Below are positions 2,760 to 2,789 of a stretch of DNA of 4,893 bases, in pieces. The DNA comes from a virus (taxonomy: Duplodnaviria; Heunggongvirae; Uroviricota; Caudoviricetes): the IMG/VR virus record IMGVR_UViG_2548876958_000007, one strand, 5' to 3'. The translations under genes were made by a program, and so were the position numbers. The stretch's first letter is position 1. The number at the start of each line of letters is the position of its first letter. The notes beneath the pieces were generated by a model. The model was given only the letters and a program-made list of their open reading frames with translations. It was not told the origin of the DNA and did not search any database.

Positions 2760-2789
2760 ATGATAGCTTATTTCAAATAAGCAGGACAA
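2760..2789 (-). promoter_or_regulatory. Candidate promoter of the 311-aa gene with a perfect 17-bp palindrome (GCTTATTTCAAATAAGC, 2766..2782) filling the -35/-10 spacer
   Basis: Minus-strand -35 TTGTCC (plus 2784..2789) and -10 TATCAT (plus 2760..2765) separated by 18 nt; the spacer is an exact 8+1+8 palindrome, the classic position for a dimeric repressor operator. Confidence 0.45.

What the first reader, a model, noticed from the sequence alone, without database searches (positions are those of the whole stretch)
2760..2789. Perfect 17-bp palindrome exactly filling the spacer of the candidate promoter of the 311-aa gene
GCTTATTTCAAATAAGC (8+1+8, no mismatches) lies between a TTGTCC -35 and a TATCAT -10 on the minus strand. 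A perfect palindrome occluding a promoter spacer is the standard geometry of a dimeric repressor operator, implying that the 311-aa gene is under specific negative control rather than constitutive. It does not resemble the palindromes in the oR region, so the regulator is probably not CI; it also does not match LexA, CRP, Fur or FNR consensus sites that I can recall.
Basis: seen in the sequence. Interest (0 to 1): 0.6.

Follow-up and report, generated by a model that had tools for sequence, protein, structure and literature searches.

The report
Conserved operator array in prophage promoter
The palindrome is real and is one pair of a conserved set of short TAGCTA-like protein-binding boxes laid over the promoter of a mobile one-gene prophage cassette of unknown function, so the gene is very probably under specific repression, possibly by its own product.

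Summary
The 17-bp perfect palindrome is at 2766-2782. It fills 17 of the 18 spacer bases of a minus-strand promoter, TTGTCC-18-TATCAT. On its own it is weak evidence: about 0.2 such palindromes are expected per window.

Comparison decides the matter. The 311-aa P63C-domain gene with its flanks (1716-2994) is a self-contained cassette with a terminator on each side. It occurs in different prophage contexts across Enterobacterales. In 18 lineages (58-100% protein identity) the promoter is conserved in position. So are four AGCT-core boxes:
- Box1 TAGCTAA and Box2 TTAGCTA lie exactly 16 bp apart, upstream of -35.
- Box3 GCTwA follows -35.
- Box4 TwAGCTA overlaps the first two -10 bases.
- Further boxes lie 82-112 bp upstream.

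The palindrome is Box3 plus Box4. Its perfect A/T interior is not conserved; relatives pair only 3-7 of 8-9 positions.

The operator reading is supported, but the functional unit is a box array, not this palindrome. The binding protein is unknown. CI is excluded. Autoregulation by the P63C protein is the best guess (about 0.5). RptR and KorA, which bind TAGCTA, are the closest known analogues, but no relative of RptR is encoded nearby.

The parts
1716..2994 (-). Mobile one-gene cassette: upstream terminator, AT-rich regulatory region, promoter, P63C gene, downstream terminator
   Evidence: This span is 98.7% identical in E. coli ST131 strain 4993, where it sits next to a different cI. In 933W-type phages the same slot holds the stk operon.
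1797..2732 (-). 311-aa P63C-domain protein gene (function unknown)
   Evidence: Pfam PF10546 at E 6.6e-23 over residues 183-269. PHROG 2384, function unknown. No PADLOC hit. 1568 homologs.
2736..2741 (-). Shine-Dalgarno GGGGGA
   Evidence: Read from the sequence.
2760..2765 (-). -10 hexamer TATCAT
   Evidence: T1, A2 and T6 are invariant in 18/18 lineages.
2764..2770 (-). Box4 (TAAGCTA on the minus strand); overlaps the first two bases of the -10 and forms the right arm of the palindrome
   Evidence: AGCTA is present in 23/23 upstream regions and is the highest-information column block.
2766..2782 (.). The reported perfect palindrome GCTTATTTCAAATAAGC (Box3 + Box4 + A/T interior)
   Evidence: The interior is not conserved.
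2777..2783 (-). Box3 (TGCTTAT on the minus strand); directly 3' of the -35 and forms the left arm of the palindrome
   Evidence: GCTwA-like in most lineages; less conserved than the other boxes.
2784..2789 (-). -35 hexamer TTGTCC (TTGCCC in most other copies of this cassette)
2793..2799 (-). Box2 (TTAGCTA on the minus strand)
   Evidence: (I24). AGC is invariant.
2808..2814 (-). Box1 (TAGCTAA on the minus strand); exactly 16 bp from Box2
   Evidence: The spacing is 16 in 18/18 lineages.
2822..2828 (-). Conserved AwGAT element (AATGATG), about 12 nt 5' of Box1
   Evidence: GAT is conserved in block A. A similar element precedes the distal boxes.
2874..2923 (-). Distal boxes: TTAGCT 2874-2879, AGCTAA 2892-2897, GCTAA 2906-2910, TTAGC 2919-2923 (+ strand coordinates), with 16/13/16 bp spacing
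   Evidence: Other lineages carry distal pairs 16 bp apart, 82-83 or 110-112 bp upstream of Box1.
2947..2970 (-). Upstream terminator-like hairpin plus T run that ends the cI-DUF3024 transcript
   Evidence: A GC-rich hairpin followed by a T run occurs at this place in many lineages.
1770..1787 (-). Downstream intrinsic terminator of the cassette
   Evidence: -12.4 kcal/mol.

Best explanation
The palindrome is the promoter-proximal pair (Box3 + Box4) of a conserved array of AGCT-core boxes (consensus TAGCTA / TTAGCTAA). The array lies over the sigma-70 promoter of a self-contained, horizontally mobile cassette that carries one P63C-domain gene. A sequence-specific DNA-binding protein occupies these boxes. 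The boxes sit at about -13.5, -28.5, -42.5 and -58.5 relative to the inferred transcription start, with auxiliary boxes 80-110 bp further upstream. Because Box4 overlaps the -10 and Box3 abuts the -35, occupancy should exclude RNA polymerase. The gene would then be kept at a low, buffered level in the lysogen. The cassette carries no other gene, moves between unrelated phage contexts and genera, and the array is found only upstream of this clade of P63C genes. The most economical binder is therefore the P63C protein itself, acting as a negative autoregulator. Cooperative binding or looping to the distal boxes is possible.

Shown: the palindrome, the promoter geometry, the conservation of the boxes and the mobility of the cassette.
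Inferred: protein binding, repression, and the identity of the binder.
For: - The palindrome and promoter are present as described.
- 18 independent lineages at 58-100% protein identity were compared. They come from E. coli, Cedecea, Morganella, Symbiopectobacterium, Enterobacter, Yersinia, Pantoea, Serratia, Tatumella, Providencia and Photorhabdus. All share -10 TAnnnT, and 16 of 18 have a TTGACA-like -35 scoring at least 4/6. Spacers are 17-18 nt, Box1-Box2 spacing is exactly 16 bp (18/18), Box2-Box4 spacing is 28-29 bp, and AGCTA abuts the -10 in every lineage.
- Positions outside the boxes carry about zero information.
- AGCT occurs 85 times in the 200 nt upstream of 16 of these lineages, against 7.5 expected.
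- Synonymous sites inside the gene vary freely in the same lineages. An intragenic TAGCTA is not kept. The boxes are therefore under selection.
- The cassette is a single gene with a terminator on each side. It occurs between cI and N of phages with different immunity, beside an Arc/Bro-N region and beside tailspike genes.
- In IMG/VR all 14 matches to the three-box pattern that lie upstream of a P63C gene have this promoter arrangement. By inspection the other 24 matches look like coding sequence, terminator hairpins or chance.
- P63C homologs at or below 55% identity lack the boxes.
- A second clade has a 63-82% identical C-terminal part but only a 23-32% identical N-terminal part. It carries a different conserved promoter palindrome, TGCACGT-N4-ACGTGCA. 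Members with a similar N-part (69-71%) but a diverged C-part (49-54%) keep the AGCT boxes.
- There is precedent that TAGCTA arrays overlapping a -10 mediate repression: RptR (PMC12255303). KorA's operator OA, GTTTAGCTAAAC, shares the core (PMC11790492).
Against: - No DNA-binding domain is recognisable in the P63C protein. Pfam and NCBIfam find nothing in residues 1-177.
- The link between operator type and the 5' part of the gene could be mere physical linkage.
- Within the second clade the N-parts are only 35-42% alike, yet at least three of its four N-part subtypes (P0042, P0045 and P0052-like) carry that palindrome.
- Box spacings of 13-16 bp put neighbouring boxes on different faces of the helix, which is unusual for simple cooperative dimers.
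- No transcription start, expression or binding data exist.
- The -35 of this copy is poor (TTGTCC), so the promoter may be weak or may depend on an activator.
Confidence: 0.5

Rival explanations
1. The boxes are operators for a repressor encoded elsewhere in the host or on another mobile element. The candidate is a small TAGCTA-binding regulator of the RptR or KorA type. The cassette promoter would be wired into that regulator's regulon and repressed only in cells that carry it.
For: RptR binds the 6-bp palindrome TAGCTA in arrays of at least 2 sites. Its first repeat overlaps the -10 in the same register as Box4: TTTAGC|TAATTT in the RRDM promoter against TwAGC|TAnnnT here. The KorA operator GTTTAGCTAAAC shares the TTAGCTAA core. 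Full-length rptR is present in 218 of 5426 complete E. coli genomes, with weaker matches in about 570 more.
Against: No RptR homolog lies within 2-4 kb of any P63C cassette, and RptR shows no similarity to the P63C protein. RptR is absent from most E. coli genomes, so it could hardly maintain the boxes across 11 genera. RptR sites are phased at 9 bp, while these are 13-16 bp apart. In this window Box4 is AAGCTA, which is not one of the four forms RptR accepts. No 12-bp KorA operator is present. In IMG/VR the three-box arrangement occurs only upstream of P63C genes.
Confidence: 0.2
2. The boxes bind a protein that activates the promoter or relieves silencing, rather than repressing it. For example, a factor could displace H-NS from the 28-32% GC upstream region, or act as a class I/II activator that compensates for the poor -35.
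For: Box1 and Box2 are centred near -42 and -58, typical activator positions. The region is very AT-rich (GC 0.32). The -35 of this copy matches only 4/6 (TTGTCC) and other copies of this cassette 3/6 (TTGCCC). Distal sites are common in anti-silencing systems (general knowledge).
Against: Box4 overlaps the -10 and Box3 abuts the -35 in all lineages. This would obstruct RNA polymerase rather than help it. Many lineages have a perfect TTGACA -35 and still keep all boxes. MerR-type activation from the spacer needs 19-20-bp spacers, but these are 17-18 bp.
Confidence: 0.12
3. The palindrome has no function of its own. It is a chance A/T-rich symmetric stretch between two promoter hexamers, and the conserved bases are just promoter elements.
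For: 19% of shuffled windows contain an equally good palindrome. Perfect symmetry is not conserved. G at -14 could act as a partial extended -10.
Against: The same AGCT-core motif recurs at Box1 and Box2 and at distal positions outside the polymerase footprint, with fixed 16-bp spacing in 18/18 lineages. AGCT is enriched 11-fold. Extended -10 elements are TGn, not AGC.
Confidence: 0.05
4. The palindrome acts as a nucleic-acid hairpin, that is, a terminator, attenuator or cruciform.
For: It can fold into a 7-bp stem.
Against: The fold is only -5 kcal/mol (z -1.9) and has no U tract. It lies upstream of the inferred start, so it is not in the mRNA. Relatives lose the base pairing. There is no Rfam match.
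Confidence: 0.02

Closest known systems
RptR operators of the EPEC RRDM defence island (Zhang et al., NAR 2025, PMC12255303)
   Same: The core is the short palindrome TAGCTA within TTTAGCTAA. Several copies are needed. One copy overlaps the -10 in the same register (AGC immediately 5' of the TA of the hexamer). The function is repression of a horizontally acquired, possibly toxic or defence-related module.
   Different: RptR sites are direct 9-bp repeats placed head to tail, whereas here the boxes are 13-16 bp apart as inverted pairs with extra distal sets. rptR is the first gene behind its promoter. Here the only gene is a 311-aa P63C protein with no similarity to RptR.
KorA operator OA of IncP plasmid RK2 (GTTTAGCTAAAC; PMC11790492)
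   Same: It shares the TTAGCTAA core. Class I OA sites overlap -10 regions and repress transcription (position recalled from memory).
   Different: OA is a single 12-bp palindrome. No 12-bp match exists here. There is no IncP context, no KorA-like protein and no KorB partner sites.
Multi-operator autoregulated phage and plasmid promoters (lambda CI at oR/oL, P22 Mnt/Arc, restriction-modification C-proteins)
   Same: Repeated related sites overlap the core promoter and auxiliary sites lie at a distance. The regulated module is self-contained and mobile.
   Different: Those regulators have recognisable HTH or RHH domains and operators of 14-20 bp. Here the unit is a 6-8-bp AGCT-core box and the candidate regulator has no known DNA-binding fold.
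lambda rexAB and 933W stk: accessory genes (morons) between cI and N
   Same: The genomic slot and orientation are the same, and the genes are presumably expressed in the lysogen (lambda rex from general knowledge).
   Different: In 933W these genes are annotated as cotranscribed with cI from pM up to terminator tM; for lambda rexAB cotranscription with cI from pRM is recalled from memory. This cassette is insulated by a terminator on each side and has its own regulated promoter.

Membership tests
Sigma-70 promoter with an overlapping repressor operator | -35 and -10 hexamers with a 17+/-1 bp spacer at a plausible distance from the start codon | tested here: met
   TTGTCC-18-TATCAT lies 27 nt from the ATG. 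It is conserved in position in 18 lineages.
Sigma-70 promoter with an overlapping repressor operator | Dyad-symmetric site overlapping core promoter elements and conserved among orthologous promoters | tested here: met
   GCTwA...TwAGC ends are present in most lineages: Box4 is invariant and Box3 less so. The interior is not conserved.
Sigma-70 promoter with an overlapping repressor operator | A protein shown to bind the site and lower transcription; a mapped transcription start | not testable with these tools
   No expression or binding data are available.
RptR-type operator array | 6-bp palindrome TAGCTA (or TAGATA, TATCTA, TATATA), at least two copies in the promoter | tested here: met
   TAGCTA occurs at 2793 and 2809. 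Box4 is TAGCTA in many relatives but AAGCTA in this window.
RptR-type operator array | Sites arranged as adjacent 9-bp direct repeats (or multiples of 9 bp) | tested here: not met
   Spacings are 16, 13-14 and 15-16 bp, against 9 bp in RRDM.
RptR-type operator array | An rptR homolog (79-aa four-helix protein) encoded directly downstream or nearby | tested here: not met
   tblastn of RptR against all P63C loci finds nothing. hhalign probability is 0.1%.
KorA OA operator | 12-bp palindrome GTTTAGCTAAAC | tested here: not met
   The best match in the window has 3 mismatches and is at chance level.
CI/Cro operators of the resident phage | Sequence related to the oR/oL sites; co-inheritance with one immunity type | tested here: not met
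   The oR repeats are ACTTTCAGT/ACTGAAAGT. The cassette with the same boxes occurs with at least five different cI/cro pairs and in contexts without cI.
LexA (SOS) box | CTGT-N8-ACAG | tested here: not met
   There is no match within 2733-2995 at up to 1 mismatch.
MerR-type spacer dyad (activation by DNA distortion) | Dyad in an over-long 19-20-bp spacer | tested here: not met
   Spacers are 17 (10 lineages) or 18 (8 lineages) bp.
Intrinsic terminator or structured RNA | Stable GC-rich hairpin plus U tract, or covariation that supports a stem | tested here: not met
   The fold is -5 kcal/mol with no U tract. Pairing is lost in relatives. There is no Rfam hit.
SlyA/MarR site (TTAGCAAGCTAA, recalled from memory) | TTAGC and GCTAA half-sites separated by 2 bp | tested here: not met
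   Here the half-sites overlap (TTAGCTAA) or lie 8 bp apart in everted order.

The most novel reading that the evidence does not exclude
P63C-domain proteins are a so far unrecognised family of sequence-specific DNA-binding regulators. Their 5' gene part and matching operator set travel together as exchangeable specificity modules: TAGCTA arrays in this clade and TGCACGT-N4-ACGTGCA in a sister clade. Because the TAGCTA code is the one used by RptR to hold type I restriction/DarTG defence islands in check, the prophage protein might also bind those host operators (or RptR might bind this promoter). That would couple a prophage accessory gene to the regulation of host anti-phage defence.
Probability: 0.1. 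Interest if true: 0.75.

Novelty: new variant of a known kind. Interest (0 to 1): 0.5.

Why it matters
Accessory genes in the cI-N slot of lambdoid prophages (rexAB, stk, sieB) are a classic source of lysogenic conversion and phage exclusion. Almost nothing is known about how those that are not simply cotranscribed with cI are controlled.

This work defines a compact, portable unit of terminator, operator array, promoter, gene and terminator. The unit has spread through at least eleven genera of Enterobacterales. It also gives a precise, testable operator model: four proximal and several distal TAGCTA-type boxes with fixed spacing.

If the P63C protein binds these boxes, a widespread domain of unknown function (more than 1500 homologs) would gain a biochemical activity and a target sequence. 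If a trans factor such as RptR binds them, the regulon of a newly described defence-island repressor would extend to prophage genes. In either case tight repression suggests that the product is harmful when over-expressed, as is typical of abortive-infection or exclusion functions.

Tried and rejected
1. Exact 17-mer in IMG/VR: 18 hits. Seven are near-identical copies of this cassette. The rest are unrelated chance contexts, so there is no regulon.
2. Two pattern scans used a wrong Box1-Box2 gap (N10 instead of N8) and returned only noise. The corrected scan is.
4. Profile comparison of the P63C family with Bro-N proteins gave only a 12-column local match, AK..R.WV, which is not significant.
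5. Search with the N-terminal 140 residues: 439 hits at E up to 0.001. The best-ranked ones are mostly of full P63C-protein length. All four long single-match proteins scanned also carry the P63C domain, five shorter ones (158-273 aa) matched no Pfam family, and the multi-repeat hits are spurious WD40 matches. No alternative domain architecture was seen.
6. The divergent promoter TTGATA-16-TAAAAT (2842-2869, + strand) is the best consensus match in the window, but it is not positionally conserved in relatives.
7. The intragenic palindrome CTCTAGCTAGAG (2258-2269) as an internal operator: it is not conserved at synonymous sites.
8. A small ORF in the upstream region that could encode a regulator: none is credible.
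9. Boxes as recombination sites of the cassette: they are present at one end only. There is no AGCT box in 1716-1796.
10. Literature on P63C: nothing functional was found. The Iyer, Koonin and Aravind 2002 prediction that P63C belongs to viral transcription regulators is recalled from memory and could not be retrieved.

Full report
**Context**

The window is the immunity region of a lambdoid, 933W-like prophage. Read on the minus strand from high to low coordinates, it contains:
- cI (4105-3398);
- a DUF3024 gene (3337-2996);
- a terminator-like hairpin;
- an AT-rich stretch;
- the 311-aa gene (2732-1797);
- a strong terminator (1787-1770);
- the pL/nutL region;
- N (1298-915);
- an Nmad5 gene (853-230).

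cro and cII lie on the plus strand. The 311-aa protein carries only a P63C domain (PF10546, residues 183-269). It belongs to a PHROG of unknown function and has no PADLOC match.

**Observation**

GCTTATTTCAAATAAGC is at 2766-2782 and is a perfect 8+1+8 palindrome. On the minus strand it reads TTGTCC-T-GCTTATTTGAAATAAGC-TATCAT. It therefore fills 17 of the 18 spacer bases of a promoter-like site that the consensus scan also lists.

On statistics alone the finding is modest. Dinucleotide shuffles of the window give 0.2 such palindromes, and shuffles of the 263-bp intergenic stretch give 0.03. As RNA it folds at only -5 kcal/mol without a U tract, so it is not a terminator.

**The gene is part of a mobile cassette**

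- Positions 1716-2994 recur at 98.7% identity in E. coli ST131 strain 4993, next to a different cI. They also recur in seven IMG/VR contigs.
- In 933W itself the slot is occupied by L0083-stk-L0081, annotated as read from pM up to terminator tM.
- Homologs at 77-89% identity sit between other cI and N genes (Cedecea, Enterobacter, Yersinia, Serratia, Tatumella), beside an Arc/Bro-N region of a Morganella phage, or beside tailspike genes (Enterobacter, Pantoea).
- The one gene common to every context is the P63C gene. Five lambdoid contexts also have a small convergent ORF just downstream, which this window lacks. The upstream region has no credible small ORF.

**Phylogenetic footprint**

I compared the upstream regions of 18 distinct lineages at 58-100% protein identity.

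All have TAnnnT 25-37 nt before the start codon. Sixteen of the 18 have a TTGACA-like hexamer scoring at least 4/6, placed 17 or 18 nt upstream of it.

Four AGCT-core boxes are superimposed on the promoter:
- Box1, TAGCTAA.
- Box2, TTAGCTA, exactly 16 bp from Box1 in 18/18 lineages, just upstream of the -35.
- Box3, GCTwA, directly after the -35.
- Box4, TwAGCTA, whose last two bases are the first two of the -10. AGCTA is invariant here.

Further details:
- Box2 to Box4 is 28-29 bp.
- An AwGAT element lies about 12 nt 5' of Box1.
- More boxes, again in pairs 16 bp apart and preceded by AwGAT, lie 82-83 or 110-112 bp upstream. In the window they are at 2874-2923.
- Positions between boxes carry essentially no information.
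- AGCT occurs 85 times in the 200-nt upstream regions of 16 of these lineages, against 7.5 expected.
- TAGCTA occurs 5 times in the window against 0.9 expected.
- As a neutral control, synonymous codons inside the gene differ freely among the same lineages, and an intragenic TAGCTA (2261) is not kept.

**What the palindrome is**

It is Box3 plus Box4. The outer GCT/AGC bases are the conserved parts. The A/T interior that makes this copy perfect is not conserved: relatives pair only 3-7 of 8-9 positions. The closest relative (Cedecea, 89% protein identity) already has two mismatches. The perfect symmetry is thus largely a chance feature of the E. coli allele. The functional unit is the box array.

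**Mechanism**

With a start near 2753, the box centres fall at about -13.5, -28.5, -42.5 and -58.5. A protein on Box4 and Box3 would block the -10 and -35, which is the geometry of steric repression. Box1, Box2 and the distal sets would add cooperativity or looping.

I reject three alternatives:
- MerR-type activation, because spacers are 17-18 nt rather than 19-20.
- A hairpin role.
- A divergent promoter, because it is not conserved.

**Who binds**

CI is excluded by the variety of immunity regions. LexA is excluded by sequence.

Two known repressors recognise this core:
- RptR of EPEC is a 79-aa dimer. It binds TAGCTA within TTTAGCTAA repeats that overlap the -10 of a type I RM/DarTG island (PMC12255303). 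I retrieved its gene and promoter. The register AGC|TAATTT is the same as at Box4.
- KorA of RK2 binds GTTTAGCTAAAC (PMC11790492).

Neither fits as the usual binder here:
- No RptR homolog lies near any cassette.
- RptR has no similarity to the P63C protein.
- Full-length rptR is in only 218 of 5426 complete E. coli genomes.
- RptR sites are phased at 9 bp, not 13-16 bp.
- No KorA-length palindrome is present.

The three-box pattern with correct spacing was scanned in IMG/VR. It gave 38 hits. The 14 upstream of P63C genes all have promoter geometry. By inspection the rest look like coding sequence, terminator hairpins or chance matches.

P63C homologs at or below 55% identity lack the boxes. 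A sister clade has a C-terminal part 63-82% identical but an N-terminal part only 23-32% identical. It carries a different conserved promoter palindrome, TGCACGT-N4-ACGTGCA. The Providencia and Photorhabdus members (N-part 69-71%, C-part 49-54%) keep the AGCT boxes.

This pattern is what a self-encoded, N-terminally determined DNA specificity would give. I therefore favour negative autoregulation.

The caveats are real:
- Promoter and 5' coding part are physically linked.
- Sister-clade N-parts are only 35-42% alike among themselves.
- The N-terminal domain is an integral part of the family: every long single-match hit scanned also carries the P63C domain, and no other domain partner was seen.

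**Verdict**

The operator interpretation is partly supported and needs reshaping: the palindrome is one pair of a conserved TAGCTA-type box array on a genuine promoter of a portable one-gene cassette.

My confidence by step:
- about 0.85 that the boxes are protein-binding regulatory sites;
- about 0.7 that the effect is repression;
- about 0.45-0.5 that the binder is the P63C protein.

This is a new variant of a known kind of element and has moderate interest.

Noticed in passing
window 2996-3337 (-): The gene directly after cI encodes a DUF3024 protein. It matches the PADLOC candidate defence family PDC-S43 (E 7e-42) and is the counterpart of 933W L0084.
   Followed up: partly
window 1555-1587: A perfect 11-nt inverted repeat, ACCAATAGTTC-N11-GAACTATTGGT, brackets the -35 of a minus-strand promoter-like site (TTGATA-17-CATTAT, 1576-1548) in the expected pL/oL position. 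Its sequence differs from the oR repeats ACTTTCAGT/ACTGAAAGT at 4133-4165.
   Followed up: no
window 2947-2970 (-) versus L001 4232-4262: The terminator hairpin upstream of the cassette lacks two bases of the stem that are present in the ST131 copy (GGTCACAG... against GGTCGCACAG...). It folds weakly (-8.8 kcal/mol, z -0.7). Read-through from cI-DUF3024 into the cassette may therefore be higher in this phage.
   Followed up: partly
L005, L116, L119, L120, L357, L360, L361 (upstream of the P63C gene): A sister clade of P63C cassettes carries a different conserved 18-bp palindrome, TGCACGT-N4-ACGTGCA, with a variable centre. It lies just downstream of a -10-like hexamer. One Erwinia member (L358) has a TGTACGTACA variant.
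   Followed up: partly
window 230-853 (-): The gene downstream of N encodes an Nmad5 (nucleotide modification associated domain 5) protein, E 3e-71.
   Followed up: no
window 2842-2869 (+): TTGATA-16-TAAAAT is the best sigma-70 consensus match in the whole window and points away from the P63C gene. It is not positionally conserved in related cassettes and is probably a by-product of AT-richness.
   Followed up: yes
window 1222-1229 and 2258-2269: A perfect TTAGCTAA lies inside the N gene, and a 12-bp palindrome CTCTAGCTAGAG lies inside the P63C gene. The second is not conserved at synonymous sites in relatives. The first was not examined.
   Followed up: partly
window 2853-2862 (minus-strand TCGATAAATA): This is a 9/10 match to the H-NS high-affinity motif tCGATAAATT (motif recalled from memory). 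It lies in the 32% GC upstream region, so H-NS silencing of the cassette is conceivable.
   Followed up: no
L191 and L192 (Yersinia mollaretii CP139925): One genome carries two copies of the cassette with identical protein, in two different prophages with different cI/cro genes.
   Followed up: no
L002 (E. coli EC02) 3084-4041: A 290-aa P63C homolog lies 82 bp after cI with no terminator, no AT-rich region and no boxes. It is apparently cotranscribed with cI, as with rexAB.
   Followed up: partly
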